DNA of 64,000 nt. Origin: Candidatus Nealsonbacteria bacterium. GTDB lineage: Bacteria > Patescibacteriota > Minisyncoccia > Minisyncoccales > RBG-13-42-11. Of this stretch, positions 442 through 22,275 are shown piece by piece. Within the stretch, counting starts at the first letter, position 1; the number at the start of each line of letters is the position of its first letter. Made by a program: the position numbers and the translations under genes. The notes under the pieces were generated by a model. It had not been told where the DNA came from. It searched no databases and saw nothing but the letters and a program-made list of their open reading frames with translations. The stretch covers positions 69,142-133,141 of the forward strand of contig JAPLXL010000002.1 of NCBI GenBank assembly GCA_026396115.1, given 5' to 3'.

Positions 442-472
442 GAAGGGTGAAGAAGAGATTTATCTCTTCGAC
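442..472 (+). repeat. palindromic repeat family, copy A (ybeY leader)
   Basis: gaagagat-tt-atctcttc hairpin at 452-469. The 21-mer at 450-470 is identical to 21355-21375. Confidence 0.8.
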
Positions 473-6782: not shown

Positions 6783-6807
6783 TCGGTCCACCGGGATGGC
6801 TTCCCTG

Positions 6808-6858
6808 GGCGAAGAAGATAAATCTTCTTCTTTACCCTTCGCTGCGGCTCGGGTGTGC
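6808..6858 (+). repeat. palindromic repeat family, copy B
   Basis: ggcgaagaagataaatcttcttctttacccttcgctgcggctcgggtgtgc. Confidence 0.85.
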
Positions 6859-6865
6859 AATAAAG

Positions 6866-7885
6866 ATGAAAAAAAATTTAAAGAAAATGATTTTTGCAAT
6901 ATTAATCTTTCTTTTTATTATTTTGGGTTTCTTTTTTCTTGGAAGCGCTCCCCAAGCGGAAGAAATTAAATGGGGAGTCAATTTTTCCCAAAAACACAGC
7001 CGGGACATGGGATTGGAATGGAAAGAAAATTATTTAGCTTTGCTTGATGATTTAAATGTAAAAGATTTAAAAGTTGCCGTTCATTGGGACTTAATTGAGC
7101 CGGAAAAAAATGAATATCGTTTTGAAGACCTGGATTGGCAGATAAATACGGCTGAAAAAAGAGGGGCTAAAATTCTTTTGGTAATTGGCATGAAAACGCC
7201 GAGATGGCCGGAATGCCATCTTCCTGGCTGGGCAAAGAATTTAACCAGAAAAGAACAAGAAGAAAAAATTTTAGAAATGCTTAAAAATATTGTTTTGCGT
7301 TACAAAGATTCAAAAACTATATATGCCTGGCAGGTAGAAAATGAACCTTTTTTCCCTTTTGGCGATTGTCCCTGGCTTCATGACAGAAAATTTCTTAAAG
7401 TAGAGATTGATTTGGTCAAGAGTCTTGATTTTCAAAACAGACCGGTGGTAATATCTGATAGTGGAGAGTGGTCTTTTTGGTTTAGAGCGGCTCGGATTGG
7501 CGACATTGTTGGCACAACAATGTATAGAAAAGTCTGGTTTCACCAGTTAGCAGTTTATGTTACTTATCCTATCCCCCCTGTTTTTTATTGGAGAAGGGCC
7601 CAACTTGTTGAAAAGTTTTTTGATAAAAAAGTAATTTGCGTTGAATTTCAAGCTGAGCCCTGGGGGCCAAAACTGCTTTATAATTTGCCTTTAGCAGAAC
7701 AGGAAAAAACAATGAACTTGGAACAATTCAGGAAAAATATTGAATATGCAAAAAAAACCGGCTTAAAAGAATTCTATTTATGGGGAGCTGAATGGTGGTA
7801 TTGGATGAAAGAGAAACAAAACCAGCCAGAAATTTGGAACGAAGCAAAAAAATTATTTATTGAAATCAAAGGTGAAACGAATTGA
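6866..7885 (+). CDS. membrane-anchored/secreted clan GH-A (TIM-barrel) glycoside hydrolase
   Basis: N-terminal hydrophobic anchor. WDLIEPEKNEYRFEDLDWQI and WQVENEPF (NEP acid/base motif) are typical of GH5/GH42-like hydrolases. Confidence 0.5.
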   Translation: MKKNLKKMIFAILIFLFIILGFFFLGSAPQAEEIKWGVNFSQKHSRDMGLEWKENYLALLDDLNVKDLKVAVHWDLIEPEKNEYRFEDLDWQINTAEKRGAKILLVIGMKTPRWPECHLPGWAKNLTRKEQEEKILEMLKNIVLRYKDSKTIYAWQVENEPFFPFGDCPWLHDRKFLKVEIDLVKSLDFQNRPVVISDSGEWSFWFRAARIGDIVGTTMYRKVWFHQLAVYVTYPIPPVFYWRRAQLVEKFFDKKVICVEFQAEPWGPKLLYNLPLAEQEKTMNLEQFRKNIEYAKKTGLKEFYLWGAEWWYWMKEKQNQPEIWNEAKKLFIEIKGETN

Positions 7886-7899
7886 AAATTCGTTGAACA

Positions 7900-8778
7900 T
7901 TGAAAATTATGCTTAGCATTATTATTCCCGCCCTGAATGAGGAAAAATATCTTCCCTTATTGCTTAATTTAATCAAGCAGCAGAACTTTGCTGGAGGCGA
8001 AGAGGATAAATCCTCTTCTTCACCTTCGCTTTCCCGAGCGATAGCGAAGGGGGAAGAAGAAAGTTTACTTTCTTCGCCCTCGCTAGGCGAAAGCTCGGCT
8101 TATGAAGTGATTGTGGCTGATGCCGACTCTATTGATAAAACAGTTGAGATTGCCAAAAGTTTTGGCTGTCAAGTTATTAGAGGCGGCCTGCCGGCCAGAG
8201 GAAGAAATGAGGGAGCAAAAATTGCCAAAGGAGAGATTTTTTTGTTTATGGACGCTGATAATGTTTTTTTGCCAGAGAACTTTCTAGAAAACCTTTTGGC
8301 AGAATTTGAAAAAAAGAAATTGGGAGTAGCTTCTTTTCCGATCTATCCCAGGGGTAAAAAAATAGATAAAATTCTTTACGGAATTTACAATAATTTTGTT
8401 AATTTGACTAAAATTCCCTGTGCCACAAATTCGGTTTTGGTTAAAAAAGAAATTTTTGAAAAAGTTGGCGGATTTGACGAAGAAATAAAAATAGGTGAAG
8501 ATCATTGTTTTGTCAAGCAAGCGGCAAAATTTGGCAAATTCGGATTTATAAAAACCGAATCCGTTTTGACATCTCCCAGAAGGTTTGAGCATGAAGGCAG
8601 ATTGAGAACTTATTTGAAATATATTTTAGCCGGGATTTATATGCTTTTTTTCGGCCCGATAAAAAAACCTATTTTTAAGTATAATTTTGGTCATTGGTCA
8701 GCGAGCGAGGCAGAGCCGAGCGAAGGTGGAAAAGAGCGTAAAGTGCTCTTTGACTATTTGAAAAAGAAAAAAAATTGA
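7900..8778 (+). CDS. family 2 glycosyltransferase carrying an in-frame 37-codon repeat-derived insert
   Basis: LSIIIPALNEEKYL ... YEVIVADADSIDKT ... FMDADN is a GT2 signature. It is interrupted at 7990-8100 by repeat-element sequence. Confidence 0.8.
   Translation: MKIMLSIIIPALNEEKYLPLLLNLIKQQNFAGGEEDKSSSSPSLSRAIAKGEEESLLSSPSLGESSAYEVIVADADSIDKTVEIAKSFGCQVIRGGLPARGRNEGAKIAKGEIFLFMDADNVFLPENFLENLLAEFEKKKLGVASFPIYPRGKKIDKILYGIYNNFVNLTKIPCATNSVLVKKEIFEKVGGFDEEIKIGEDHCFVKQAAKFGKFGFIKTESVLTSPRRFEHEGRLRTYLKYILAGIYMLFFGPIKKPIFKYNFGHWSASEAEPSEGGKERKVLFDYLKKKKN
7996..8100 (+). repeat. palindromic repeat family, two tandem copies inside the GT2 CDS
   Basis: ggcgaagaggataaatcctcttcttcaccttcgct..., then ...gaagaaagtttactttcttcgccctcgctaggcgaaagctcggct. 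The 25-mer at 7998-8022 is identical to 21298-21322. Confidence 0.85.
8701..8751 (-). repeat. palindromic repeat family, reverse-orientation copy forming the GT2 C-terminal tail
   Basis: The reverse complement reads aaagagcactttacgctcttttccaccttcgctcggctctgcctcgctcgc. Confidence 0.7.
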
Positions 8779-8800
8779 GATAAAATTAAGTATTACCACC

Positions 8801-10120
8801 ATGTCTATTTACGAACTGCCAAAATTTAAGATGCCGAAAATAAAACTGCCAAAATTTAACTTTCCTAAGTTTTTAAGGAACAGAATTTTTTGGCTGGCAG
8901 TTTTAATTATTTTTTTGTCTTCTTCTTTTGGTTTTTTAGCCGGAATTGTTTCTGGCAGTATTTTCTATTTGCAAATAAAAGATTATCTTTCCGGCTTAAA
9001 TATTAAACTTCCGGAAATTCAAAAATTGATTGAGAAAGAATATGTTTCTCAAACTACTCAAGAAGAAACAACAATAAATGTGGTAAAGAGCGCTTCTCCG
9101 GCAGTAGTCAGTATCGTTATCACCAAAGACGTTCCAATTATTGAAGAATATTACTACAACCCTTTTCCAGAATTTGGTCAGCAATTTCAAATTCCTCAAT
9201 ACCGGCAAAAAGGAACCCAAAAGCAGGAAGTTGGTGGAGGAACGGGCTTTATTGTTTCTGATGACGGAATGATTTTAACCAATAAACATGTGGTTTTAGA
9301 TACTGAAGCTGATTACACTGTTTTAACCAATGATGGGAAGAGTTATCCTGCCAAAGTTTTAGCTCGCGACCCTGTTCAGGATTTGGCAGTAATTAAGATT
9401 GACCAAGAAAAAATTGTGAATAGCCCGGGGAATTTCACTTTAACAAAGTTTCCAGTAGTAAGACTGGGTGATTCGGATGCTCTCCAAATCGGCCAGACCG
9501 TAATTGCCATCGGCAATGCCTTGGGAGAATTTCGAAATACGGTTTCAGTGGGTGTAGTTTCAGGTCTAGGGAGAAGCATTACTGCTTCAGGTGGCGGTTT
9601 ATCTGAAACTATTGAAGATGTTATCCAAACCGATACCGCTATTAATCAAGGGAATTCCGGTGGGCCGCTTCTTAACCTAAAAGGAGAGGTTGTTGGGATA
9701 GATACAGCTATGGTTCAGGGAGCCCAAAATATTGGTTTTGCTATTCCTATTAATAAAGCCAAAAAAGACATTGAGCAGATTAAAACCCTGGGGAAAATTG
9801 TTTACCCATATTTGGGGGTTAGATACGTTTTAATCACAGAAAAGATTCAGGAAGACAATAACTTGCTGGTTTCTTACGGTGCTTGGATTATTAAAGGATA
9901 CCAGGGAGAGTCAGCCGTTGCTTCTGGTTCAGCTGCTGAAAAAGCCGGCCTTAAAGAAAAAGACATAATTTTAGAGTTTAATGAAGAAAGGATTACTGTT
10001 GAAAATTCTTTAGCTAAAATTATTATGAAATATAACCCGGGAGACAGAGTTGTTTTGAAAATTTTGAGAAACGGCAAGGAAGAAATCATCCAGGCAACCC
10101 TGGACGAAATAAGCGAATAA
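8801..10120 (+). CDS. htrA: HtrA/DegP-family serine protease with PDZ domain
   Basis: Intact catalytic triad contexts TNKHVV, DLAVIKI and GNSGGPL. N-terminal TM anchor and C-terminal PDZ-like region. Confidence 0.9.
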   Translation: MSIYELPKFKMPKIKLPKFNFPKFLRNRIFWLAVLIIFLSSSFGFLAGIVSGSIFYLQIKDYLSGLNIKLPEIQKLIEKEYVSQTTQEETTINVVKSASPAVVSIVITKDVPIIEEYYYNPFPEFGQQFQIPQYRQKGTQKQEVGGGTGFIVSDDGMILTNKHVVLDTEADYTVLTNDGKSYPAKVLARDPVQDLAVIKIDQEKIVNSPGNFTLTKFPVVRLGDSDALQIGQTVIAIGNALGEFRNTVSVGVVSGLGRSITASGGGLSETIEDVIQTDTAINQGNSGGPLLNLKGEVVGIDTAMVQGAQNIGFAIPINKAKKDIEQIKTLGKIVYPYLGVRYVLITEKIQEDNNLLVSYGAWIIKGYQGESAVASGSAAEKAGLKEKDIILEFNEERITVENSLAKIIMKYNPGDRVVLKILRNGKEEIIQATLDEISE

Positions 10121-10157
10121 GAACAGTGTAATAAAAAAGGAAAGGAGGAAAAAACAC

Positions 10158-10340
10158 ATGGGCTTACATGGGACTGAGTCTAACCTGATAGAAAGGATGG
10201 ACGCCTATCAAAGAGAAGCAAGAGCAATAAAAAGAAAACTGGAAAACGGCGTTCCGGAAGAGAAAAGAGATAAGATTGAATCTCGCTTGAAAGACCTCAA
10301 AGGAAGATTAATTCCCGATCTTGTCCGAAAAATTTTTTAA
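10158..10340 (+). CDS. small helical hypothetical protein
   Basis: 60-aa ORF with an unusually strong SD (aaggagg, 8 nt before the ATG), followed by a rho-independent terminator. Confidence 0.4.
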   Translation: MGLHGTESNLIERMDAYQREARAIKRKLENGVPEEKRDKIESRLKDLKGRLIPDLVRKIF

Positions 10341-10375
10341 GGGTTTTTATGCTTCTACTCGGAGCACAAAAGTCA

Positions 10376-10425
10376 GGGGGATACAAGATGCGTAAACAGC
10401 GGATTGTATCCCCTTTTTTTATTTT
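10376..10425 (+). terminator. rho-independent terminator
   Basis: gggggatacaa (10376-10386) pairs with ttgtatcccc (10404-10413), followed by a T run. Confidence 0.7.
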
Positions 10426-10451
10426 TGAGGTTTTATTTTTTTTAAATTGTA

Positions 10452-10460
10452 TGCTATAAA
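10452..10460 (+). promoter_or_regulatory. extended -10 promoter candidate for clpB
   Basis: tgcTATAAA (TGn plus -10). It would place the transcription start just 5' of the repeat element that fills the clpB leader. Confidence 0.35.
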
Positions 10461-10470
10461 GAAAATGAAA

Positions 10471-10531
10471 GGCGAAGAGGACTTCGTCCTCTTCTTTACC
10501 TTCGCTTTTATAAATAAAAGCTTGGTGTATG
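10471..10531 (+). repeat. palindromic repeat family, two-hairpin variant abutting the clpB ATG
   Basis: ggcgaagaggac-ttcg-gtcctcttc tttaccttcgc; second hairpin gcttttat..ataaaagc; then ttggtgtATG. Confidence 0.85.
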
Positions 10532-13219
10532 AACGGTAATTTCACCCACAAATCTCAAGAGGTAATACTCCAGGCGCAGAATGCGGCCCAGGAAAGAGGC
10601 CAGCAGCAGATTGATGCTCTGCACCTCTTATACGCCCTGCTTTCTCAGGAAGAAAGCGTGGTTTTGAATTTGCTTGAAAGATTAGGAGCTGATATTGAGG
10701 ATTTAAAGAAGAAAACAAAGGCTGCCTTGGATAAAATTCCGGTAATTGCCACCACTCAAGTTTTTGGTCAATTGTATTTGACCCAGGATATGGCCAGGGT
10801 TTTAGAGAGAGCCAGACAGGAAGCCGCTAAAATGGGTGATGAATATATTTCGGTTGAACATTTATTTTTAGCTTTGTTAGATACTTCAACCAAAGCAAAA
10901 GAAATTTTAGACAAAACTAATTTTTTACAGCCGGGCGGCGGCGTCACTTCTTTGGAAATTGGCAAATTGGACTATGAAACAGTTTTGAAAACTTTAGCTC
11001 AGATTCGCGGAGGCCAAAGAATCACGGATCCCGAACCCGAATCAAAATATCAAGTTATTGAAAAATATGCCAGAAATTTAACTCAGTTGGCCCGTCAAGG
11101 GAAGTTGGATCCGGTAATTGGCAGGGAAAATGAAATCAGAAGATTAATGCAGGTTTTGTCGCGAAGAACAAAAAACAACCCGGTTTTAATTGGCGAAGCC
11201 GGGGTTGGCAAAACCGCCGTGGCCGAGGGCTTGGCTCAGAAAATTGTTTCCGGAAAAATTCCGGAATCCTTAAAAGATAAAGAAATTATTGCTTTGGATT
11301 TGGGAGCTTTGGTTGCCGGAACAAAATATCGGGGAGAATTTGAAGATAGAGTAAAAGCTCTTTTAAAAGAACTTAGTCGGTCAGGCGGCAGATATCTTCT
11401 GTTTATTGATGAACTGCATACCTTGGTTGGGGCCGGCGCGGCCGAAGGAGCGATTGATGCTTCTAATTTGTTAAAGCCGGCTTTGGGCCGGGGAGAATTA
11501 AGAGCAATTGGCGCCACCACCCTGAAAGAATATCAAAAATATATTGAAAAAGACCCGGCTTTAGAAAGAAGATTCCAGCCAATTTATGTTCAAGAGCCCA
11601 CAATTGAAGACACGGTGGATATTTTAAGAGGAATCAAAGAAAAATACGAACTTCATCACGGAGTAAAAATTAAGGATTCTGCCCTGGTGGCAGCTGCCGA
11701 GTTGGCTGCCCGTTATATTACCGACAGATTTTTGCCGGACAAAGCCGTAGATCTAATGGATGAAGCAATGAGCTCTTTAAGATTAGAAATTGAATCAGAA
11801 CCCTTAGAGCTTGAACAATTAAAAAATGAAATCCAAAAACTAGAAGTTGAAAAACGAGCCTTAAAGAAAAATAAAAAAAGACAAAAAGCAATTTCTCGCC
11901 AACTGGCTGATTTAAAAGAGAAAGCAAAAGAAATTGAAGCTCAATGGCAGGCAGAGAGAGAAGTTATTACTAAGATTAAAAACCTTAAAAAAGAAATAGA
12001 AAGTACTCGTTTTGAAGTAGAAAGAGCCCAGACCCAGGCCGATCTCCAAAAAGTGGCTGAATTAAAATACGGAAAAATTCCCAACCTTTTAAAAGAATTG
12101 AAGTCGGTTGAAAGAAAATTAGTTAGATTCCAAAAATCAAGACCAATTTTAAAAGAAGAAGTTTCAGAGGAAGAATTGGCCAGGGTTGTTTCTCTCTGGA
12201 CCGGCATTCCGGTTACTCGGCTTTTGGAAGAAGAAGTTAAAAAATTAGAAAAAATGGAAAATCTTCTTCAAAAAAGAGTCGTTGGCCAAAAAGAAGCAAT
12301 TTTGGCAATTTCTAATGCAATTCGAAGGGCAAGAGCTGGAATTTCAGAAGAAAACAGGCCTGTGGGCTCTTTTATGTTTTTAGGACCAACCGGTGTCGGC
12401 AAGACCGAAACTGCTAAAGCTTTGGCTGAATTTCTTTTTAACGACGAAAACGCTTTGATCAGGTTGGATATGTCAGAATATATGGAAAAGCACACTGTGT
12501 CGCGAATGATTGGTTCTCCTCCGGGCTATGTTGGTTACGAAGAAGGAGGTCAATTGACCGACAAAATCAGAAGAAGGCCTTATAGCGTAATTTTGATGGA
12601 CGAAATTGAAAAAGCCCATCCCGATGTTTTTAATATCCTTCTTCAGATTTTAGAAGACGGCAGATTGACCGACGCCAAAGGCAGAACAGCTTCTTTTAAA
12701 AACGCTATTTTGATTATGACTTCAAACGTTGGTTCAGACATTATCGCCAAAGAAGCGTCACTTGGTTTTATTGGTGGTGACGAAGCAATGGAAGCCAGGG
12801 AAAATTTAAAAGAAAAAGTAATGTCAGCTTTAAAGGAAAACTTCCGGCCCGAATTCCTGAATAGAATTGATGAAATTATTATTTTTAACTATCTCGGCAA
12901 AATGGAAATTAAAAAGATAGTTGATTTGCAATTGGCCATTGTTAGCGAACGCCTTAAACAAAAGAAAATTGAAATTAAGGTTACAGAACAAGCCAAAGAA
13001 TTTTTAGCCGAACGTGGTTTTGACCAGAACCTGGGAGCCAGGCCCTTAAAAAGAGTGATTCAGAAAATGGTTTTAGATCCTCTGGCTTTGAAAATAGTTT
13101 CCGGCGAGTTGAAAGAGAAAGACAATATAGTTGTTGATTTGCAGAATAACGAAATTGTTTTTAGAACTTTTGAAGATTTAGTAAAAAATGTTTCCAAAGA
13201 GAAACTTTTGGTTAAATAA
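10529..13219 (+). CDS. clpB: ATP-dependent disaggregase ClpB
   Basis: Two AAA+ modules (GEAGVGKT and GPTGVGKT Walker A motifs) with a long coiled-coil middle domain and a Clp N-domain. 896 aa. Confidence 0.95.
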
Positions 13220-13935
13220 TGTTAAAAAACATTCTTAAAATTATTACCATTTTTATTATTGGAATGGTTGGTGGGATTTTCGCCAATCAGATTTTATGGC
13301 CTTATTTTGTTGAAAGGCCGCTTTTTTATCAATACGGCTTGGAGGAGAGCCCGACTTATATAACAGAAACAAAGGAAATAATTATTCAGGAAAATATCGC
13401 CCTTAAAGACGCGCTTGAGAAAGTAAAAAAAACAGTAGCCGGAGTGAGAACTCAAACCAAAACAGGTAAGGTTTTGGAGGGTTCCGGTTTTATCGTTACT
13501 TCCGACGGTTTAATGGTTACCCTGGCTGAACTCGTGCCCCAGGGCTCAGATTTCACCTTTTTTATAGATAACGAGTCGGTCTCTTTCCAAATTTTAAAAA
13601 GAGATTTAAAAGAAAATTTAGCTTTAATAAAAATTTCAGATTCTGTCTTTACCACGGTCAGCTTTGCCAGATTGGAGAAATTGAAAATGGGGGAGAGGGT
13701 TTTTTTGATCGGAGTTACCTTTGAAAATGAAATTCCTTCAAAACTGGTGAATGAAGGAATTGTTAAAACTTTTGACGAAAACTTTATTCAAACCAACATC
13801 CTTGAAAGCAGTCTTTTTGCCGGCAGCCCTCTTTTTAACATTGAAGGAGAAGTTCTGGGAATAAACACGATTGATTCTAAAGGGAGGGTCATTGCCATTC
13901 CCATTTCCAAAATCAGAGAATTCGTCGGATTGTAA
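13219..13935 (+). CDS. membrane-anchored HtrA-like trypsin-fold protein with all three catalytic residues substituted (pseudoprotease)
   Basis: Aligns to the htrA protease core in this window. TNKHVV becomes TLAELV, DLAVIKI becomes NLALIKI, and GNSGGPL becomes LFAGSPL. Its start overlaps the clpB stop (TAATG). Confidence 0.6.
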   Translation: MLKNILKIITIFIIGMVGGIFANQILWPYFVERPLFYQYGLEESPTYITETKEIIIQENIALKDALEKVKKTVAGVRTQTKTGKVLEGSGFIVTSDGLMVTLAELVPQGSDFTFFIDNESVSFQILKRDLKENLALIKISDSVFTTVSFARLEKLKMGERVFLIGVTFENEIPSKLVNEGIVKTFDENFIQTNILESSLFAGSPLFNIEGEVLGINTIDSKGRVIAIPISKIREFVGL

Positions 13936-13941
13936 AAATAT

Positions 13942-13985
13942 AAAAAGCTCACCAGATTAACTCTGTGTGAGCTTTTTGTTTTTTA
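13942..13985. terminator. bidirectional rho-independent terminator
   Basis: aaaaagctcac (13942-13952) pairs with gtgagcttttt (13967-13977), flanked by A and T runs. Lies between convergent genes. Confidence 0.7.
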
Positions 13986-13989
13986 TTAT

Positions 13990-14289
13990 CTATTTATTGG
14001 TATATTTTCCAATATTTTTTACCCGTCCCATATCTACTTCTTTTTCTTTTATCTCTCCTTCATTTATTTTCGGGTTTTTCATGATCCAAATCAAGAATTT
14101 CGAGCCCAAACAAGCAATAGATATTAGGCCTATTGTCTGTGCTATCAAGACACTATTAATTTGAAGGTAATAAATCTTGGCAATAAGATGTGCCTCAATA
14201 ATGACCTTACGGCAAAACCATATTGTTGATATTACCGTAACAAGACCTGTCACTACTTGCGCCACAAGTATTCTAAATCTTTCCATCAT
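13990..14289 (-). CDS. small membrane protein, unknown function
   Basis: Minus-strand ORF with 2-3 hydrophobic helices. I prefer the ATG at 14289, preceded by GAGGTG, over the GTG at 14301 used in the ORF track. Confidence 0.4.
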   Translation of the reverse strand: MMERFRILVAQVVTGLVTVISTIWFCRKVIIEAHLIAKIYYLQINSVLIAQTIGLISIACLGSKFLIWIMKNPKINEGEIKEKEVDMGRVKNIGKYTNK

Positions 14290-14611
14290 TTCTATTTTCA
14301 CCTCTCTTTCTTTCCATATTTATATTTTTAAAAAAAGAAAAATTTCTTTTTAACTAACTATACCTTAACATATTTAAAATAAAAAGTCAAGCCAGAAAGC
14401 ACTTTTTGAAATAAGTTATCCACAGGGGCGGGTTGTTTTTTTGTTTTTGGATTTGTTATGATAGGAAAATATGGCAAATTTTAAAAAATTTTTGAATAAA
14501 AAATTTCTTTTTGTTTTTGTATTTGTTTTAATCCTCGCTGTCGGAGGATTATTTTTTTGGTGGCAGAGATAATTATTAAAATCTCGAATAAGATATAGTT
14601 TAAGTGAAAGA

Positions 14612-14644
14612 AAGCCCATCGCTGGCGGCGGGCTTTATGTTTTC
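14612..14644 (+). terminator. terminator-like hairpin containing the left copy of the 15-bp direct repeat
   Basis: aagccc (14612-14617) pairs with gggctt (14630-14635), then tatgtttt. Confidence 0.4.
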
Positions 14645-14674
14645 CGCCAGATAAAATTTGATAAACGCCTTATT

Positions 14675-15022
14675 ATGAGATATTTATTTCTTGTGTTAAC
14701 GAGAGGACTTGCGACCTTTATTGTGCTTTTACTTAGCGTAATTTTTATTTTCTTATTTTTTCATAAAGTCCTTGATGGTTCTTTAGAGCTTATTATTTTT
14801 GCCCTGCTTGGATATATTACTGGAGCTATAATTCAGCCGAGCCACGAGTTTTTATTGCGTTTAAGGGCTCATAAAAGCAACTCTGAGATTGATTATGAAC
14901 TTGAGGCGCTTGAGACAATGGCACCACTATTAATTCGTTTTCGTAAGAGGACAGCCGATATTGTTTTTGATATTACTTTATTGGCGGGTATTATAGCTTT
15001 CTTTTTTGTCATTTTCTTTTAA
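14675..15022 (+). CDS. small 3-TM membrane protein, unknown function
   Basis: 115-aa ORF with hydrophobic helices at both ends and a charged central segment. Confidence 0.45.
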   Translation: MRYLFLVLTRGLATFIVLLLSVIFIFLFFHKVLDGSLELIIFALLGYITGAIIQPSHEFLLRLRAHKSNSEIDYELEALETMAPLLIRFRKRTADIVFDITLLAGIIAFFFVIFF

Positions 15023-15038
15023 TATAGGAGAATAATCT

Positions 15039-15440
15039 ATGGAAACGGAAAGAATAAAACAATTTTCATTTTGGAAGGCCCTTTTAGTAGTTTTTGTAAT
15101 AATCTTAGCTACATCAGGAATAACTTTTGGGTTTTTAGGTTTATACGACGAGGGTTTTATTGAGGGATTTAGTGGTCTTCTGATAATTGCTTTTATATTG
15201 GCACCAATCTTTACCTTTTTTATTAAGTGGCGGAGAGATTATAGGTTAACTGGTAAGCTATTCACTTTAAATTACAAAGAAATTAAGAGCTGGCAATTTC
15301 TATTTGCAGTTTTATTTTTTATATTTTCAATTTTTACAGTAGCAAGCACCTTCTTTCCGTCTGATTATAAAAATTTTAATTCTTTGCCACCAATCCAAAT
15401 AAATCCCGATGATTGGAACCCTTATGGTTATTATGGGTAA
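15039..15440 (+). CDS. small 3-TM membrane protein, unknown function
   Basis: 133-aa ORF with an SD-like aggag upstream, followed by a terminator. Confidence 0.5.
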   Translation: METERIKQFSFWKALLVVFVIILATSGITFGFLGLYDEGFIEGFSGLLIIAFILAPIFTFFIKWRRDYRLTGKLFTLNYKEIKSWQFLFAVLFFIFSIFTVASTFFPSDYKNFNSLPPIQINPDDWNPYGYYG

Positions 15441-15454
15441 CAAAAAGTCAAATT

Positions 15455-15480
15455 AAAGCCCCTCAAGCGGGGCTTTTTTT
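15455..15480. terminator. rho-independent terminator between convergent genes
   Basis: agcccc (15457-15462) pairs with ggggct (15469-15474), then a T run. Confidence 0.7.
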
Positions 15481-15563
15481 GATATAAAATGTCTATTAAG
15501 AGAAAAATCTTTTAAAAGGGGGCTTTTATTTTTCAGTTGAAACTCTGGCTAAGATTATAGCTT

Positions 15564-18500
15564 TCATAGTTTCTGAGTATTTACCAATTTATAATAAGGA
15601 TTTTTAGAGCATTTTGCCTTGATTTTTTCTGCCTTATTTAACCCTAAACCTTCTAACCCAATGTTGAAATATAGCGCAAAAACTAAATCATCAATATAGT
15701 TTTTCAGCTCTTGTTGTTTATCATAATCAATAATTGGTAAGGTTTTTAATTCAGATAAACTAATTATTGATTTTTCTAATTTTAATCCCTTACTATTATA
15801 TTTCTCGTCAATTGTTTTCTTAACTAAATTTTTACCACCTTTTATATGAATTTTAATTTTTTCTTTATCTTTTTCTAAAATTAGATTATTGCTTTCTACT
15901 GAAACGTTATCAAATTTTTGGAGCATTACTTTTGAAAAATCAACAAAGTGGGATAGCGTTTCCTCCCCTAACTTTAACATTTTTTCCACGCTATTTATGA
16001 TTTCATTTTTTATTTTTTGATTACCATCTGTAATTTTAGGTATTCGCACGAATTCTTTGATAGCCCTCAGCGGTATAAAATAATCTTTTTCATTTTCTTG
16101 TCTGAGATTTTCTTCAAGAATCAATTTGGTAATAGGAGAATTAAGTAAGGAAAAATAAAATAATAATTCGTTTTTTGAGTTAGAACTAACAGTCAACGAT
16201 TGGTTATTGATTAGGAGAATATTTCTATCTGTGAATTGGAAACGATTAGCAAATCTCGTTCGCCAGATGATTTTAAATTTTTTATGGAAGGTAGCTATTC
16301 CTTGACTTCCAGAAGGAAATTCAAAAGAACCATTGATAGGATAATATTTCTCGCTTTTACTTATCGTATATGCATCCCAATCGTTAGTTTTATAGTCAAA
16401 AATTTCAAAACAGTCATCATTAGCTCGGTTTTTAATTGAATCTTCGTTTATTATAACCCCTCCATCAAAAGAAAAGTCATCGTTGGGAGTTAATTTAACT
16501 CTAAAAGATGAGATATCAATCGTATTTTTCTTATATTCTTCGTGGAAATTTAAAAATTTCTTCTCTTGTTTAATAAAATTCCAGTTTGCGACATTCTGTA
16601 ATAATTCTTCTTGCGGGATTTCTTTCTCGGAAATTTTCTCTCCCTTAAGAATATTCTGTAAAGTTTCTTCTATGTTGTCATCAGGATTTTTATAATTTAT
16701 TACCTTAACCTTATTTGTTGCCAAAGGTATTTTTCTGCTAAGAACGAAAATCAAACTTGAAGTAGGTACTGGTTTATCTTGTTTCAACCCCCTACCTATA
16801 AACATTTTCCCACTGAAAATTATGATTTTTTCAAGGGTTGTAAATTTAGCCAAATGATAACGAAGGACATCAAGGTCGCCAGCGTTTAATAATGTTTGAG
16901 GAATAATATAGCATAGTTTTCCGTTGTCTTTCAATAATGCAATTCCTAAAGCAATAAAAAAGGCATAGAGGTTGGGCTTTGGAGAGTATGGTTTAATCCT
17001 ATTAGGCACGGTATTTAAATTTACGCCATAAATATCACTCATCTGAACTTTTTTATCCTGTATAAGCTTTACTATTAAAACGCCCTGTTTAGAAGATTCG
17101 TTATATCCAATATACGGTGGATTGCCGATTACATAATCAAATCTTTTTCTTGGCGGACGCATACTTTTTTTCGTATTTTCTAAATCACCTTTTTCTCTCA
17201 TATAACTATCAAATTCAAATTCTAATTTCTTAATATTAAAAAGTGGTCGTTGCCCTCCGCCAATGCCCATAAGGTCGTTTTCAGTATTGTTTATCTCTGA
17301 AAAAATAAACTCTGATATTGAATCTTTTGTCCAGAAAACTTTAATTTTTTTATCAATTGGATTGTTGTATTTTTCGTTAATAATCAACGGCAACATTCTC
17401 ATCACAATGTTCATCTCAGCCAGATATAGTGGAAATTCCGCTATATCTAAACCAAAAACATTTTCATTAACCAGTTCTTCTACCTCTTTTGAAGAATTTT
17501 CTGAGCCGTTCGGCACGGCGTTGATAATTTGATTAACAGCACTATATAAAAAAGTTCCACTACCGCAAGATGGGTCAATAATAGAAATATAATTTTCTTC
17601 AGGGTTATTATCTAACCTCTTTTTAATATTTTCTGGGTTATAACCAATCTGTTTAAGCATAAAGTTGACCACATCTGGGTCTGTGAAATATTGTCCCTTT
17701 TGTTCTTCTTTGTAGAGTTCCTTTAAGTAGTTTTCGTAGATATAACCAAATATTTCATTTCGGACATTGGCGAAGTTATATTTTTTAATAAATACAAAAA
17801 TGTCTAACCACGGGGAGACATCGTGCAGTTCGTTTTTAGGTTTACGCAAAAGCTCTATGAGTTTATTTGTAATAAATTCTTGTTCTTTAGCGAATGGACG
17901 ATAAATATTTTTAGATATTTCATTAGAAATACCATCAATAATACCTAAAATTTTGCCGTATTGCTTTACCTTTAAGCACTCGTAAATACCATTTTGAATA
18001 TCTGTAAACTCTTTTTTAAAAGAACTAAAATCGTTATCTACTAATGTTTTATAGAGTATAAATTGGATAATATAAGCATAAGTAATCTCAATAGCAATTT
18101 TTCCTTTTTGTTTTTTATCGGTAGTCTCTAAATATCCTTCAATCTCTAGCTTATTTTTAAAATCTCTTATTAAGGTTGTTATGTCCCTAAAAAAGTCTTG
18201 TCTTTTTTTATCTATCGAAATATCCTCTGGAATAATCTTTAATTGTCCTTTTTCCTCAAAAAATGATAAATAATAAAATTCTGGCTTGATATACTCCTCC
18301 CAATATTCCCTAAATAATTCAGGATTTTCAAAAATTTGCTTCAAATTAAATTCTTTTAGTAAATAAGCATTATTATAAAATTGCCAAGTATAACCATCTG
18401 TCAAAATCCCATATTTTTTATCTAAATCAAGTTGATATTGAAGTAATTGGCTAAGGCCGTTTTCAATGTTTCCGTATTGCTCCACCTCAAGAGGAATATT

Positions 18501-18740
18501 TATTTCGGGATTTATATAAATAATAATATCAGCCAAACGTCTAGCTTTTGTTTTAGTTTCTTCTGTGAATTCGTTATTTCTTCTTTCTAATGGAGTAGAG
18601 CTCAGCCCTTCTTTTAAATTAAAAATATCCTCAGATTTAAGAAAATCTTTAACAAATTTCTGAACGCCAGAGCCAACTTCTCGGGTTTTATAATCCTCTT
18701 TTTCTTTATTCCATTTGGTTTTTAGTTCCCTTATATTCAT
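15564..18740 (-). CDS. type IIG/IIL single-polypeptide restriction-modification enzyme (N-terminal nuclease-like region, gamma-class N6-adenine methyltransferase, C-terminal target-recognition region)
   Basis: 1058 aa. SAM motif I (IIDPSCGSGTFLY) lies upstream of catalytic motif IV (VIGNPPYIGY), the gamma-class order seen in Eco57I/MmeI-type enzymes. The N-terminal segment ADIIIYINPEINIPLEVEQ is PD-(D/E)xK-like. Confidence 0.8.
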   Translation of the reverse strand: MNIRELKTKWNKEKEDYKTREVGSGVQKFVKDFLKSEDIFNLKEGLSSTPLERRNNEFTEETKTKARRLADIIIYINPEINIPLEVEQYGNIENGLSQLLQYQLDLDKKYGILTDGYTWQFYNNAYLLKEFNLKQIFENPELFREYWEEYIKPEFYYLSFFEEKGQLKIIPEDISIDKKRQDFFRDITTLIRDFKNKLEIEGYLETTDKKQKGKIAIEITYAYIIQFILYKTLVDNDFSSFKKEFTDIQNGIYECLKVKQYGKILGIIDGISNEISKNIYRPFAKEQEFITNKLIELLRKPKNELHDVSPWLDIFVFIKKYNFANVRNEIFGYIYENYLKELYKEEQKGQYFTDPDVVNFMLKQIGYNPENIKKRLDNNPEENYISIIDPSCGSGTFLYSAVNQIINAVPNGSENSSKEVEELVNENVFGLDIAEFPLYLAEMNIVMRMLPLIINEKYNNPIDKKIKVFWTKDSISEFIFSEINNTENDLMGIGGGQRPLFNIKKLEFEFDSYMREKGDLENTKKSMRPPRKRFDYVIGNPPYIGYNESSKQGVLIVKLIQDKKVQMSDIYGVNLNTVPNRIKPYSPKPNLYAFFIALGIALLKDNGKLCYIIPQTLLNAGDLDVLRYHLAKFTTLEKIIIFSGKMFIGRGLKQDKPVPTSSLIFVLSRKIPLATNKVKVINYKNPDDNIEETLQNILKGEKISEKEIPQEELLQNVANWNFIKQEKKFLNFHEEYKKNTIDISSFRVKLTPNDDFSFDGGVIINEDSIKNRANDDCFEIFDYKTNDWDAYTISKSEKYYPINGSFEFPSGSQGIATFHKKFKIIWRTRFANRFQFTDRNILLINNQSLTVSSNSKNELLFYFSLLNSPITKLILEENLRQENEKDYFIPLRAIKEFVRIPKITDGNQKIKNEIINSVEKMLKLGEETLSHFVDFSKVMLQKFDNVSVESNNLILEKDKEKIKIHIKGGKNLVKKTIDEKYNSKGLKLEKSIISLSELKTLPIIDYDKQQELKNYIDDLVFALYFNIGLEGLGLNKAEKIKAKCSKNPYYKLVNTQKL

Positions 18741-18744
18741 AAAT

Positions 18745-18921
18745 CTATTTCGTTTTTACTTTATTTAAAAACTTATTAAATTCTTCTTTATCAATTCTAA
18801 ACTCTTTGCCTATTTTATAGGCTTTCAACTTCCCCCTTTTGATATAGCGGTAAATAGTCATAATATTTACCCTTAATTTGTTTGCTAATTCTTGAGTTGT
18901 ATAAAAATCATTCTCTTTCAT
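18745..18921 (-). CDS. excisionase/MerR-type helix-turn-helix DNA-binding protein (58 aa; below the ORF-track cutoff)
   Basis: My own minus-strand translation is MKENDFYTTQELANKLRVNIMTIYRYIKRGKLKAYKIGKEFRIDKEEFNKFLNKVKTK. This is the classic excisionase-family HTH pattern (T..E.A..L.V...T.YR.I..G.L.A.K.G...RI). Its stop lies 4 nt before the RM gene ATG. Confidence 0.7.
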   Translation of the reverse strand: MKENDFYTTQELANKLRVNIMTIYRYIKRGKLKAYKIGKEFRIDKEEFNKFLNKVKTK

Positions 18922-18929
18922 ACACTTTC

Positions 18930-18958
18930 ATTATACTTTACAATTCTTTACAAGCCAA
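18930..18958 (-). promoter_or_regulatory. sigma70-type promoter for the HTH-RM operon, with tandem TTGTAAAG boxes in the spacer; predicts a leaderless mRNA
   Basis: On the minus strand, TTGGCT (18958-18953), a 17-nt spacer, then TATAAT (18935-18930), with the ATG 8 nt downstream. The spacer holds TTGTAAAG twice at 10-bp spacing (plus-strand 18936-18943 and 18946-18953). Confidence 0.5.
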
Positions 18959-18988
18959 GTGGATAACTTTATCATTGTAAAAACAAAA

Positions 18989-19018
18989 AGCCCATCGCTG
19001 GGCTATTTTTTATTTTTT
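18989..19018. terminator. orphan rho-independent terminator (right copy of the 15-bp direct repeat)
   Basis: agccca (18989-18994) pairs with tgggct (18999-19004), followed by T runs. No convergent gene ends here. Confidence 0.55.
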
Positions 19019-19126
19019 GCTTAGGAGGCGTTCTTTATTTGGACACTTGACAAGTATTCTGAAAGGATTATGATGGACAATGAAAGGTCGAAGTAAGACA
19101 TAGATTGACATTAATCAATAAAATAT

Positions 19127-19516
19127 ATGGAAATTCAAGGATACAACTTTGAAGAATTTACATCTTTTAGAGGAAAGTTTTCTTCTAAAATTAGCTTAGG
19201 TAAGATAGGTGGATTTGGTTTTAGCACCGGTTTTTTTCACAGAAATAATTTAAAAGGGTCGGTTGGATTAAAGCTTTTTTACGACAAGGACAAAAAAGCG
19301 GTAGGATTCAAGTTTCTTGACTCGCCAGAAGAAGGTATGGTAAAATTAAAACCAAGACAGACAGGAGGATATATCTCTGCTATTTCGTTTCTCGGAAAAT
19401 ATGATATTGACCCCAAAAAATATACCGGCAGATATGACCCTAAGGAAATTATGGATGAGAAACTCGGAAAGATATTTATTATTGAATTAAAAGAGCAGAA
19501 AGATGATAAAAATTAA
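19127..19516 (+). CDS. hypothetical protein
   Basis: 129-aa ORF. No motif recognised. Confidence 0.45.
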   Translation: MEIQGYNFEEFTSFRGKFSSKISLGKIGGFGFSTGFFHRNNLKGSVGLKLFYDKDKKAVGFKFLDSPEEGMVKLKPRQTGGYISAISFLGKYDIDPKKYTGRYDPKEIMDEKLGKIFIIELKEQKDDKN

Positions 19517-20213: not shown

Positions 20214-20906
20214 TCTTTAAAAAATAATTCTGGCAAGAATAATAAGTTAAATGGCATTTATCTTTTAGGTTCAGCTACCGAAAATTGGACGCTTTATCGA
20301 AATAATGATTTTCCTTATGTCATTTTACAACTTGAAATAGTTTCCAGTTCCACTTTGATCATTAATCCAGGTGTGGTAGTAAAATTTGAACCTTATAAAC
20401 CCTGGTCGGGTAATGACGATAATTTGATCGTAAAAGGAAAGATTGAAGCCATAGGTTCTCCAACCGAAAAAATTGTTTTTACTTCGATTGATGATGATGA
20501 GTACGGTGGCGATACTAAAAATGATGGAATCACAACCTCAATTAGCTATTGGAACAGGATTCATTTCACTCCCGAAGCTGCTACTTCTACTTTTCAAAAT
20601 GTAATCATTAGTTATGGAGGACTAACTGGACTTGGTTGGTATCCTTATCTTGGTGTGGTATATGTAGAAAAAAATAGTGTAATTTTTGAAGATGTTTACT
20701 TCAAAAATAACGGACCCAGTGCGTATACTCTTTATTTAGAGAACTCAACTTCTACGGTTAGAAATTCCATTTTTGAAAATAGTTGGATAGCAATTAATAT
20801 TGTCGGTCAAGATCAGAATGTCTTTGAGAATAATGCTTTCCAAAATTGCAATTGCTATGTCATGAAGGATAATCAGTGTATTTCGCCTATTTCGTCCTTG
20901 CCTTAA
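20214..20906 (+). pseudogene. 5'-truncated remnant of a large right-handed beta-helix surface protein
   Basis: The frame is open from 20214 with no ATG until a TTG at 20355. The upstream in-frame peptide LNGIYLLGSATENWTLYRNNDFPYVILQLEIVSSSTLIINPGVVVKF continues the domain. Downstream NSIFENSWIAINIVGQDQNVFENNAF repeats are beta-helix-like. There is no signal peptide or N-terminus. Confidence 0.45.
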
Positions 20907-21004: not shown

Positions 21005-21637
21005 ATGAACAGAGAGTTTTTAATTCAACTGACAAATAATCTTTATCGCTTAACCTTGCTTTTTCCGAAAAAAGAGCCCTTAAGGTATAAAATGCGAGAA
21101 AAGGCTGATGATATTTTGGCCAAACCCAATGAAAAAGATTTGGAGGTTTTGGACAGTTTTTTTGAAGTGGCTTTGGTTCAAAACTGGGTAAGTCCTTCTG
21201 ACATATTGGCAATTAAGAAAGAATATGATAATCTAGGGGAGATATTAAAAAAATACAAGCCGGAAAAAGAAAAAAAGAAAGATAATCTTGCTGTTGTCGA
21301 AGAGGATAAATCCTCTTCTTCAGCCATCGAGCGAGGCGAAGCCGAGCGAAGATCAAGAAGAGATTTATCTCTTCGCCCCGCTGCGGCTCTGGTTGTTGAA
21401 GCTTATCCCAAAGAAACGCCAATTCCGCTGGGTCATAATTTGAACAGGCAAGAAAAGATACTGGAGTTTTTAAAAGAAAAGGGCAGGGCCCAGGTTTGGC
21501 AGATAAAGCAAGTTCTGCCCGAAGTTACCAAAAGAACCTTAAGACGAGATTTTGAGCATATGTTAGAACAGGGCTTAATTGAGAGAATGGGCGAGAAAAA
21601 CGACACTTTTTACCAAATTAGAAATATTCAATCCTAA
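21005..21637 (+). CDS. winged-helix (DeoR-type HTH) DNA-binding protein with repeat-derived linker
   Basis: C-terminal NRQEKILEFLKEKGRAQVWQIKQVLPEVTKRTLRRDFEHMLEQGLIER is a DeoR-like wHTH. ATG at 21005 is preferred as the start. The linker at 21298-21396 is repeat-element DNA. Confidence 0.55.
   Translation: MNREFLIQLTNNLYRLTLLFPKKEPLRYKMREKADDILAKPNEKDLEVLDSFFEVALVQNWVSPSDILAIKKEYDNLGEILKKYKPEKEKKKDNLAVVEEDKSSSSAIERGEAERRSRRDLSLRPAAALVVEAYPKETPIPLGHNLNRQEKILEFLKEKGRAQVWQIKQVLPEVTKRTLRRDFEHMLEQGLIERMGEKNDTFYQIRNIQS
21298..21396 (+). repeat. palindromic repeat family, two tandem copies inside the wHTH CDS
   Basis: cgaagaggataaatcctcttcttca..., then ...aagaagagatttatctcttcgccccgctgcggctctggttgt. 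Confidence 0.85.
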
Positions 21638-22214: not shown

Positions 22215-22275
22215 GGCGAAGAGAACTTCGTTCTCTTTTTTATCTTCGCTTTCACTACGTGAAAGCTTGGTGTGT
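22215..22275 (+). repeat. palindromic repeat family, two-hairpin variant between the sigma and DUF5667 genes
   Basis: ggcgaagagaac-ttcg-ttctctt ttttatcttcgc; second hairpin gctttcac-tac-gtgaaagc; then ttggtgtgt. Confidence 0.85.

What the first reader, a model, noticed from the sequence alone, without database searches (positions are those of the whole stretch)
14611..19001. Restriction-modification island bracketed by an exact 15-bp direct repeat, one copy being an orphan terminator
aaagcccatcgctgg occurs at 14611-14625 and 18987-19001, a GC-rich 15-mer in AT-rich DNA. The right copy forms a perfect terminator (AGCCCA-tcgc-TGGGCT plus T runs). However, no gene on either strand ends there: the HTH gene starts just to its left and the next gene starts to its right. 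The left copy follows a 33-codon TM-peptide ORF (14471-14572, MANFKKFLNKKFLFVFVFVLILAVGGLFFWWQR) and has a different 3' half. The simplest reading is a 4.4-kb insertion into a terminator hairpin, duplicating the target. Its cargo would be two small membrane proteins, a type IIG RM enzyme and an excisionase-type HTH. The RM gene looks visibly more AT-rich than the flanks. No integrase or transposase is present, so the mobilisation mechanism is unknown. The wider region to 20.9 kb also contains a truncated gene, consistent with a hotspot.
Basis: partly seen in the sequence, partly recalled or inferred. Interest (0 to 1): 0.6.

Follow-up and report, generated by a model that had tools for sequence, protein, structure and literature searches.

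The report
Decayed restriction-modification island in a hotspot
A restriction-modification gene in an uncultured Nealsonbacteria-type genome is the stranded leftover of a mobile element that lost its recombinase, lying in a fast-changing stretch of chromosome; the 15-base repeat around it is real, but it is not shown to be the scar of one clean insertion.

Summary
The 15-mer AAAGCCCATCGCTGG occurs exactly twice (14611 and 18987). The right copy is a good two-way terminator between diverging genes. A GC-rich repeat like this within 6 kb arises in about 0.7% of simulated windows.

The bracketed 4.4 kb is a mosaic, not one clean insert:
- The HTH-RM pair keeps the first 13 codons of a large serine recombinase gene (15567-15526). 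In five intact relatives, HTH-RM-recombinase elements sit at a tRNA-Asn gene next to rpoD-dnaG and have no long flanking repeats.
- The window has no tRNA, and the two membrane-protein genes are absent from those elements.
- The "33-codon peptide" is the truncated start of a conserved 228-aa gene.
- The ORF ending at 20906 is the tail of a 1290-aa gene. About 3.8 kb of ancestral DNA is missing.

The closest relative has a different type II RM cassette, with its own terminator, at the same place. Window-specific DNA runs 14566-19043, and the repeat copies lie 45 and 42 nt inside its ends. Two relatives have a single look-alike hairpin about 0.7-0.9 kb after the protease gene, so a split resident terminator remains plausible but unproven.

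Verdict: an ordinary decayed defence island in a hotspot; the origin of the repeat is unresolved.

The parts
14471..14572 (+). p33: truncated 5' end (32 codons, then R and a stop) of a conserved 228-aa gene. Homology to relatives stops at 14565/14566.
   Evidence: 84% identity to residues 1-32 of P0146/P0147. DNA is 87-88% identical to L059/L065 over 14414-14565 and ends there. The full-length gene lies between the NYN gene and the 1290-aa gene in L059-L064.
14611..14625 (+). Left copy of the 15-mer AAAGCCCATCGCTGG. It lies in window-specific DNA, 45 nt right of the p33 breakpoint and 676 nt after the protease gene's end.
14622..14650 (+). Hairpin CTGGCGG-N15-CCGCCAG, the preferred fold around the left copy. 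It has no U-tract and is not a convincing terminator.
   Evidence: Fold -16.6 kcal/mol, z = -1.4.
14675..15022 (+). TM115, a small predicted membrane protein of unknown origin.
   Evidence: No Pfam, PADLOC or homolog hits. Singleton at the 90% cluster level. Absent from all RM-family loci.
15039..15440 (+). TM133, a small predicted membrane protein of unknown origin.
   Evidence: Same as TM115.
15455..15476 (.). Two-way terminator hairpin AAAGCCCCtcaagcGGGGCTTT between the converging TM133 and RM genes.
15526..15567 (-). Remnant of a large serine recombinase gene, MKAIILARVSTEK followed by a stop. Its ATG overlaps the RM stop codon, as in intact relatives. Homology ends near 15531-15536.
   Evidence: tblastn match to LSR residues 1-11, alignment A1, translation.
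15564..18740 (-). Full-length 1058-aa fused methyltransferase with a putative nuclease domain (type IIG-like RM enzyme).
   Evidence: Pfam Eco57I 69 bits and MmeI_Mtase 33 bits. PADLOC REase_MTase_IIG 53 bits. D71/E85/E87 invariant in 119 homologs. Relatives at 84-85% (L050/L066) and 79% (L051) identity.
18745..18921 (-). 58-aa excisionase-family HTH (HTH_17), conserved directly upstream of the RM gene in the recombinase elements.
   Evidence: Pfam HTH_17 55 bits. TIGR01764 55 bits. 71-78% identity to the HTH in L051, L052, L067, L068, L090 and L092.
18930..18958 (-). Promoter-like site (TTGGCT-17-TATAAT) for the HTH-RM operon, in DNA not shared with the recombinase elements.
   Evidence: alignment A2.
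18979..19016 (.). Right terminator, comprising an A-run, the AGCCCA-tcgc-TGGGCT hairpin and a T-run. It includes the right 15-mer copy (18987-19001) and is orphaned between diverging promoters.
19044..19516 (+). p129 promoter (TTGACA 19047 to TATGAT 19074) and the p129 gene. DNA shared with the close relative L054 starts exactly at 19044.
   Evidence: Alignment A3. 88% DNA identity to the right of 19044 and no similarity to the left (p = 0.31). P0121 is 95% identical at protein level.
20217..20906 (+). C-terminal remnant (residues about 1068-1289) of a 1290-aa HHH/LTD/beta-helix surface protein gene.
   Evidence: tblastn 50.6% identity over 231 aligned positions; Beta_helix domain.

Best explanation
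Window 14566-19043 is a composite accessory segment in a recombination hotspot of a Nealsonbacteria/Paceibacterales chromosome. The hotspot lies between the ClpB-protease genes and a sigma-factor operon.

The right two-thirds of the segment (15.53-18.92 kb) is an ectopic fragment of an integrative element of roughly 5-10 kb. Intact copies of that element carry an excisionase-type HTH, a fused type IIG-like RM enzyme and a large serine recombinase. They sit at the 3' end of a tRNA-Asn gene. In the window the recombinase gene is cut to 13 codons and there is no tRNA, so the RM gene is stranded and can no longer move by its own recombinase. It presumably still works as an HTH-regulated restriction/methylation defence gene, expressed from a newly acquired promoter (inferred).

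The left third of the segment is an unrelated two-gene membrane-protein module.

Assembling this mosaic destroyed resident genes: p228 was cut at codon 32, and about 1067 codons of the 1290-aa gene were lost.

The right 15-mer copy is an intact two-way intrinsic terminator left without a gene to terminate by cassette turnover. In the closest relative, a different RM operon reading toward p129 ends in its own terminator at the same spot. The left copy is a 15-nt partial copy of that terminator. It is most likely a junction footprint made when DNA was inserted into, or recombined at, a resident terminator about 0.7 kb downstream of the protease gene (inferred, roughly 45% on its own). It is not the attachment-site signature of the RM element's own recombinase.
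For: Recombinase remnant and element family:
- tblastn and alignment show the recombinase remnant, with DNA homology to L051/L052 running only from 15536 to about 18893.
- The HTH-RM-recombinase operon is intact in L051, L052/L070, L090 and L092. L067 has an independent internal deletion of the recombinase gene.
- In all five, the recombinase 3' end abuts or overlaps a tRNA gene 3' end next to rpoD-dnaG; ARAGORN calls it tRNA-Asn(GTT) in four, and L052/L070 is ambiguous.
- None has a repeat of 14 nt or more at those junctions.
- The window has no tRNA and no Rfam hit.
- TM115 and TM133 are absent from 30 RM-family loci.

Damage to resident genes:
- p33 is the p228 N-terminus, and the ORF ending at 20906 is the p1290 C-terminus.

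Hotspot behaviour:
- The hotspot gap varies from 1.6 to 9 kb among relatives.
- L054 has a type II RM cassette with its own terminator ending at the same boundary, 19043/19044.
- L066 carries an 85%-identical RM gene in the same hotspot in the opposite orientation.

The repeat:
- Look-alike single hairpins lie at +686 and +860 nt after the protease gene. They are the only two hits in 1.04 Mb searched on both strands.
- The repeat statistics are given.
Against: - No empty site or intermediate was found, so the order and number of events is inferred.
- The look-alike hairpins in L066 and L008 follow non-homologous genes, so orthology with the window's terminator is unproven.
- The 15-mer pair could be chance (5% at any distance).
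- The origin of 14566-15535 and of 18922-19043 is unknown.
- RM activity, the role of the HTH and terminator function are untested.
- The nuclease domain is inferred only from an invariant D...ExE pattern and a sub-threshold HSDR_N_2 hit.
Confidence: 0.6

Rival explanations
1. One 4.4-kb block (TM115, TM133, RM, HTH) was inserted in a single event into a resident terminator hairpin, duplicating 15 bp of the target, by a mechanism that needs no element-encoded recombinase or that acts in trans.
For: - The repeat is exact and sharp-edged, with unrelated flanks.
- The hypothetical empty site (left flank + 15-mer + right flank) folds into the best terminator of all variants (-16.2 kcal/mol, z = -3.7, 0 of 200 shuffles).
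- Single look-alike hairpins occur at about the same distance from the protease gene in L066 and L008.
- Direct repeats flanking RM units are a described phenomenon (PMC2853133).
Against: - The block is a mosaic of two unrelated modules joined at a truncated recombinase gene, so at least one earlier rearrangement is needed.
- There are no terminal inverted repeats and no transposase.
- 15 bp is outside the more-than-30-bp class of long target duplications.
- Breakpoints against relatives lie 42-45 nt outside the repeats.
- No empty site was found.
Confidence: 0.25
2. The two copies are unrelated or convergent terminator halves. The AAAGCCC start is common to terminators in this AT-rich genome, and the remaining 8 nt match by chance. 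The repeat then says nothing about how the island arrived.
For: - A GC-rich 15-mer repeat arises in 5% of simulated windows.
- Other exact 15-17-nt repeats of 40-47% GC exist in the window.
- AAAGCCC starts another terminator at 15455.
- The breakpoints do not coincide with the repeats.
Against: - Only 0.7% of simulations give such a repeat within 6 kb.
- Both copies sit in intergenic DNA, 45 and 42 nt inside the two ends of the window-specific segment.
- In the left copy, the part shared beyond AAAGCCC is not constrained by stem pairing.
Confidence: 0.12
3. The repeats are attL/attR of a site-specific integration by the element's own serine recombinase. A circular element carrying TM115-TM133-recombinase-RM-HTH integrated into the terminator through a 15-bp common core, and the recombinase gene was later deleted internally.
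For: - A recombinase remnant is present.
- The reconstructed circle junction AAAACAAAAAGCCC...GGGCTTTATGTTTT is an imperfect palindrome that folds well (-18.1 kcal/mol).
- Some serine recombinases of the Ccr type, to which this one is distantly similar, are known from my own knowledge to leave about 15-bp repeats.
Against: - All five intact relatives target a tRNA 3' end, with the recombinase gene's 3' end lying on the junction, and show no repeats of 14 nt or more.
- The TM genes are absent from them.
- An intact 1.48-kb recombinase gene would not fit between RM and TM133, and its 3' end would not lie at the repeat.
Confidence: 0.04

Closest known systems
RM genes linked to an integrase and integrated into a tRNA gene, one of the mobile forms of RM systems in Furuta, Abe and Kobayashi 2010 (PMC2853133)
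   Same: The intact relatives (L051, L052, L067, L090, L092) are RM-carrying integrative units at a tRNA gene 3' end. The window's HTH-RM is 70-79% identical to theirs and keeps the start of the recombinase gene.
   Different: - The recombinase here is a large serine recombinase, and no long flanking repeats were seen within 10 kb.
- The window copy lacks both the recombinase and the tRNA, so it is a dead, ectopic fragment.
Allelic substitution of RM systems at one chromosomal locus, also called a defence-island hotspot (PMC2853133; the E. coli hsd locus is cited there)
   Same: - The close relative L054 has a different type II RM cassette (N6_N4 methyltransferase + IceA-family endonuclease) ending at the same boundary, 19043/19044.
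- L066 has a related RM gene in the same hotspot in the opposite orientation.
- The hotspot gap varies from 1.6 to 9 kb.
   Different: Only one boundary is shared with L054, which is a 1.7-kb contig. The flanking genes here are partly destroyed rather than conserved.
Insertion of RM units with a long target duplication (Nobusato 2000, as cited in PMC2853133)
   Same: An RM-containing segment under 20 kb, bracketed by direct repeats, with no intact mobility gene.
   Different: - The repeat is 15 bp, below the class's criterion of more than 30 bp.
- No empty site is available.
- The bracketed DNA is composite.
Cassette-chromosome elements moved by Ccr-type large serine recombinases
   Same: The relatives' recombinase scores best, though below threshold, against CcrB, XisF and CcrA. 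These are small, site-specific cargo islands.
   Different: - All scores are far below the equivalog cut-offs (79.7 against 900 bits for CcrB).
- The target is a tRNA gene, not rlmH.
- That Ccr elements leave about 15-bp repeats is my own recollection, not tested here.

Membership tests
tRNA-Asn-targeting serine-recombinase element (HTH_17-RM-LSR) seen in L051, L052, L067, L090 and L092 | HTH_17 gene directly upstream of a homologous RM gene | tested here: met
   HTH 71-78% and RM 69-79% identical, with the same 4-nt spacing.
tRNA-Asn-targeting serine-recombinase element (HTH_17-RM-LSR) seen in L051, L052, L067, L090 and L092 | Intact large serine recombinase gene downstream of the RM gene | tested here: not met
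   Only 13 codons remain (15567-15526). No other recombinase similarity in the window at E up to 10.
tRNA-Asn-targeting serine-recombinase element (HTH_17-RM-LSR) seen in L051, L052, L067, L090 and L092 | Recombinase end abuts the 3' end of a tRNA-Asn gene next to rpoD-dnaG | tested here: not met
   No tRNA gene or Rfam hit in the 64-kb window. The neighbours are ClpB-protease and p129.
Transposon-type insertion with target-site duplication | Terminal inverted repeats just inside the direct repeats | tested here: not met
   The ends CGGCGGGCTTTATG... and ...CATTGTAAAAACAA show no inverted similarity.
Transposon-type insertion with target-site duplication | Transposase gene in the element | tested here: not met
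   Pfam scans of all cargo ORFs and 10 further ORFs found none.
Transposon-type insertion with target-site duplication | Empty site with one repeat copy in a related genome | tested here: inconclusive
   No relative is close enough. The nearest (L054, 88% DNA identity) carries another cassette. L066 and L008 have single look-alike hairpins, but in non-homologous contexts.
Insertion with long target duplication (PMC2853133 criteria) | Target duplication longer than 30 bp | tested here: not met
   The identity is exactly 15 bp, and the flanks are unrelated.
Insertion with long target duplication (PMC2853133 criteria) | Insert under 20 kb containing both R and M functions | tested here: inconclusive
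   The insert is 4.4 kb. The methyltransferase domain is above threshold, but the nuclease is only inferred.
Type IIG restriction-modification enzyme | Gamma-class N6-adenine methyltransferase domain of the Eco57I family | tested here: met
   PF07669 at 69.4 bits (cut-off 25.3) and PF20473 at 33.1 bits (cut-off 27). Match to TaqI methylase in PDB.
Type IIG restriction-modification enzyme | Fused PD-(D/E)XK-type nuclease domain | tested here: inconclusive
   HSDR_N_2 scores 17.5 bits, below its cut-off of 25. D71, E85 and E87 are invariant in 119 homologs.
Type IIG restriction-modification enzyme | Sequence-specific cleavage and methylation activity | not testable with these tools
   Needs methylome data or biochemistry.
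Intrinsic (rho-independent) terminator | GC-rich hairpin followed by a U-tract | tested here: met
   Met for the right copy on both strands. The left copy fails: it has an alternative fold, no U-tract, and z = -1.4.
Intrinsic (rho-independent) terminator | Lies at the 3' end of a transcription unit | tested here: not met
   The right copy lies between diverging promoters (18958-18930 on the minus strand, 19047-19074 on the plus strand). Only two unsupported tiny ORFs end nearby.
MADS (methylation-associated defence system) | mad1 HTH and mad2 methyltransferase above family thresholds, plus further mad genes | tested here: not met
   MAD1 scores 31.9 bits (cut-off 80) and MAD2 48.6 bits (cut-off 720). 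The PADLOC mad1 hit is 46.5 bits. No other mad genes are adjacent.

The most novel reading that the evidence does not exclude
The terminator-like hairpin (A-run, CCCAYCGCYGGG, T-run) recurs about 0.7-0.9 kb downstream of the protease gene in three Paceibacterales genomes despite non-homologous neighbouring genes. It might be a hairpin-directed cassette insertion site, loosely comparable to an integron attC or attI site. At such a site, defence and other cassettes would be inserted by a trans-acting or host function, with a 15-bp duplication. That would explain both the repeat and the RM turnover at this locus.
Probability: 0.1. Interest if true: 0.65.

Novelty: new member of a known kind. Interest (0 to 1): 0.3.

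Why it matters
Mobile elements and defence-gene turnover in candidate-phyla-radiation bacteria are poorly charted. This locus gives a worked example of an RM gene outliving the element that carried it.

The analysis also exposes a family of small integrative elements moved by a serine recombinase. They target tRNA-Asn genes, some of which contain group I introns.

For the finding itself the message is cautionary. An exact short repeat around an island does not show a single insertion unless an empty site is found.

Tried and rejected
1. Exact-protein look-ups of the protease gene and p129 returned only one other contig, with the identical arrangement.
2. A species-genome scan with the protease gene found relatives of at most 68% identity, too distant to show an empty site.
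3. I concatenated four small proteins into one homology query. It worked badly and did not even return self-hits, but it did reveal that p33 is the start of p228.
4. The idea that the left copy is p228's own terminator was rejected. Nothing similar lies downstream of full-length p228.
5. The idea that similarity extends beyond the 15-mer with indels was rejected by shuffle tests.
6. The idea that L054's terminator is a diverged copy of the window's was rejected (p = 0.31).
7. I searched for a repeat of the tRNA junction at the far end of intact elements and found none of 14 nt or more.
8. Homology between the small membrane proteins of L066/L008 and TM115/TM133 was tested and not found.
9. A viral-contig scan with the RM protein found nothing.
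10. Composition as evidence of foreign origin turned out to be weak.
11. The 15-mer as a common terminator motif was rejected. No copy with 1 mismatch or fewer exists in 1.04 Mb of related DNA.
Full report
**1. The observation**

The 15-mer AAAGCCCATCGCTGG is exact at 14611-14625 and 18987-19001. It has no other copy in the window, even allowing two mismatches. The identity has sharp edges, and the 60-nt flanks on each side are no more alike than shuffled sequence (p = 0.72 and 0.26).

I simulated the window with a second-order Markov model to allow for the look-elsewhere effect. A direct 15-mer repeat of at least 60% GC turns up somewhere in 5% of simulations, and within 6 kb in 0.7%. The repeat is therefore more than chance would usually give, but only moderately so.

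The right copy is a clean hairpin (AGCCCA-tcgc-TGGGCT) with an A-run before it and a T-run after it. It folds significantly better than shuffles on both strands. It lies between two promoter-like sites that point away from each other: 18958-18930 for the HTH-RM operon and 19047-19074 for p129. It therefore terminates nothing obvious. Two 32-33-codon ORFs end beside it, but they have no support.

The left copy is different. Its preferred fold is another hairpin (CTGGCGG...CCGCCAG), with no U-tract and z = -1.4.

**2. The organism and the locus**

The protease gene's relatives identify a Patescibacteria genome of the Paceibacterales/Nealsonbacteria type.

Across 26 related loci the gene frame is conserved: HtrA-like protease, ClpB, protease, then a gap, then a DeoR-like gene, a sigma factor, a DUF5667 gene and large proteins. 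The gap varies from 1.6 to 9 kb. No relative has any of the genes between 13.99 and 20.1 kb. This is a hotspot.

**3. The RM part is a fragment of a recombinase-borne element**

The nearest relatives of the 1058-aa enzyme were placed in their genomic context. In L051 (79% identity), L052/L070 (70%), L090 (69%) and L092 (69%), the order is HTH_17, RM, sometimes a Bro-N gene, and then a 493-494-aa large serine recombinase. The recombinase start codon overlaps the RM stop codon or follows it closely.

In all of them, and in L067, the 3' end of the recombinase gene abuts or overlaps the 3' end of a tRNA gene next to rpoD-dnaG. ARAGORN calls this tRNA Asn(GTT) in L051, L067, L090 and L092; the call in L052/L070 is ambiguous. 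Three of these tRNA genes are interrupted by an intron. The one in L051 is confirmed as a group I intron by Rfam at 84.5 bits. No direct repeat of 14 nt or more links that junction to the 8-10 kb upstream.

In the window, the 13 codons after the RM stop codon read MKAIILARVSTEK followed by a stop. They match the recombinase start, including the serine-containing ARVST motif, and then homology ends. L067 shows an independent decay, an internal deletion of about 375 codons.

The window has no tRNA gene and no Rfam hit. No other recombinase was found among the ORFs scanned.

So HTH-RM at 15.53-18.92 kb is an ectopic, immobilised fragment of this element family. DNA upstream of the HTH gene, including its promoter-like site and the right terminator, is not shared with the elements.

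**4. The rest of the bracketed DNA and the flanks**

TM115 and TM133 have no homologs in any of the RM-family loci. They are singletons at the 90% cluster level.

The "33-codon peptide" is 84% identical to the first 32 residues of a 228-aa protein of other Nealsonbacteria. DNA homology, at 87-88%, stops at 14565, which is codon 32.

In those relatives the order is protease, NYN gene, p228, a 1290-aa HHH/LTD/beta-helix protein, and then the DeoR-like gene. The window's ORF ending at 20906 matches residues 1068-1289 of the 1290-aa protein. About 3.8 kb of resident genes is therefore missing, so the region was rebuilt rather than merely interrupted.

**5. The right boundary**

A 1.7-kb contig (L054) from a closer relative is 95% identical in the p129 protein and 88% identical at the DNA level. 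Its match to the window starts exactly at 19044, at the promoter's -35 box. To the left it carries a partial N6_N4 methyltransferase gene and an IceA-family endonuclease gene on the plus strand, ending in a different terminator. Nothing left of 19044 is similar (p = 0.31).

Different RM cassettes therefore occupy the same place in related strains. This also explains why a terminator stands there: a cassette transcribed toward p129 needs one.

The window-specific DNA runs from 14566 to 19043. The two 15-mer copies lie 45 and 42 nt inside its ends.

**6. Is the repeat an insertion scar?**

For:
- In 1.04 Mb of related DNA searched on both strands, the only two sequences within 5 mismatches of the 25-nt right terminator are single hairpins. 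One is in L066 (+686 nt after the protease gene) and one is in L008 (+860 nt). The window's left copy lies at +676.
- The hypothetical unsplit site folds best of all variants.

Against:
- The genes between the protease gene and the hairpin are unrelated in the three genomes.
- L066 also carries the closest RM gene (85%) on the far side of its hairpin, so the hairpin could travel with RM cassettes instead.
- The bracketed DNA is composite.
- No empty site exists in any collection reached.
- The repeat could equally bracket the 1-kb TM module, with the RM fragment added later.

I put an insertion or recombination footprint at a resident terminator at roughly 45%, chance at about 12%, and the element's own recombinase at about 4%.

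**7. Function**

The enzyme is full length. It has an Eco57I-family methyltransferase core above threshold. Its N-terminus carries invariant D71, E85 and E87 (a D...ExE pattern, known as a nuclease-motif variant from my own knowledge) in 119 homologs. A type IIG enzyme is likely but not demonstrated.

The HTH is excisionase-family (TIGR01764) and always precedes the RM gene in this family. It could be a controller of RM expression or a directionality factor for the recombinase; this was not tested.

Composition is only mildly deviant.

**8. Comparison with what is known**

Furuta, Abe and Kobayashi (PMC2853133) describe the relevant forms:
- RM units with an integrase in a tRNA gene.
- Allelic substitution of RM systems at one locus.
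- Three origins for repeats flanking RM genes: site-specific recombination, target duplications longer than 30 bp, and chance insertion between repeats.

The window fits the first two forms, as a decayed member and as a hotspot allele. Its 15-bp repeat falls outside the long-duplication class.

**Verdict**

This is an ordinary decayed defence island in a hotspot. The origin of the repeat remains open.

Noticed in passing
window 452-469, 7999-8018, 10474-10494, 21299-21318, 21357-21374, 22218-22237: A palindrome family, GAAGAG-N3-11-CTCTT(C), occurs at six sites (12 strand matches against 0.45 expected; 0 of 100 shuffles reach that). Two sites lie just upstream of ClpB and of the DUF5667 gene after the sigma factor. 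It may be an operator for a stress regulon. Only 1 of 18 relatives (L009) keeps it upstream of ClpB.
   Followed up: partly
L051 5331-5632; L090 15545-15810; L052 14680-15285: tRNA genes of Paceibacterales next to rpoD-dnaG, called Asn(GTT) in L051 and L090 and ambiguous in L052, are interrupted by introns of 193-532 nt. The L051 intron matches Rfam RF00028 (group I) at 84.5 bits. Default ARAGORN misses these genes. The L052 intron contains a 105-aa ORF with no Pfam hit.
   Followed up: partly
L090 about 5600-15560; L052 about 6966-14691; L092; L051; L067: A family of integrative elements of up to about 10 kb, found in five independent contigs. They carry unknown genes (a conserved 376-aa protein, Bro-N or FtsK_gamma proteins), HTH_17, a type IIG-like RM gene and a large serine recombinase. 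The recombinase stop codon lies inside, or at the 3' end of, the tRNA gene. The far boundary was not determined.
   Followed up: partly
L066 1-6677 joined with L050 (99.9% overlap): An RM gene 85% identical to the window's sits in the same ClpB-protease hotspot of a different lineage (protease 64% identical). It is in the opposite orientation and is preceded by a diverging XRE-HTH and IrrE/M78 peptidase pair instead of HTH_17. DNA homology to the window is confined to the RM ORF.
   Followed up: partly
window 14529-14551 (and L059 2044-2066): A terminator-like hairpin with a T-run lies inside the coding sequence of the p33/p228 membrane anchor. It is conserved in the full-length gene of relatives.
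   Followed up: no
window 28245-29918 and 29967-31640 (minus strand): Two tandem 557-aa SBP_bac_5 solute-binding paralogs share long identical stretches. They account for most of the repeated 15-mers in the window.
   Followed up: no
window 18745-18921 and 15564-18740: The HTH hits the PADLOC mad1 model (46.5 bits), and the RM enzyme weakly hits NCBIfam MAD2 (48.6 bits, cut-off 720). This is a sub-threshold resemblance to the first two genes of methylation-associated defence systems.
   Followed up: partly
window 19127-19516: p129 has about 25 homologs (51-95% identity) scattered over different candidate-phyla-radiation lineages. In another lineage its neighbours include HNH and PD-(D/E)XK nuclease genes (L055-L058), so it may itself be an accessory or mobile-associated gene.
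   Followed up: no
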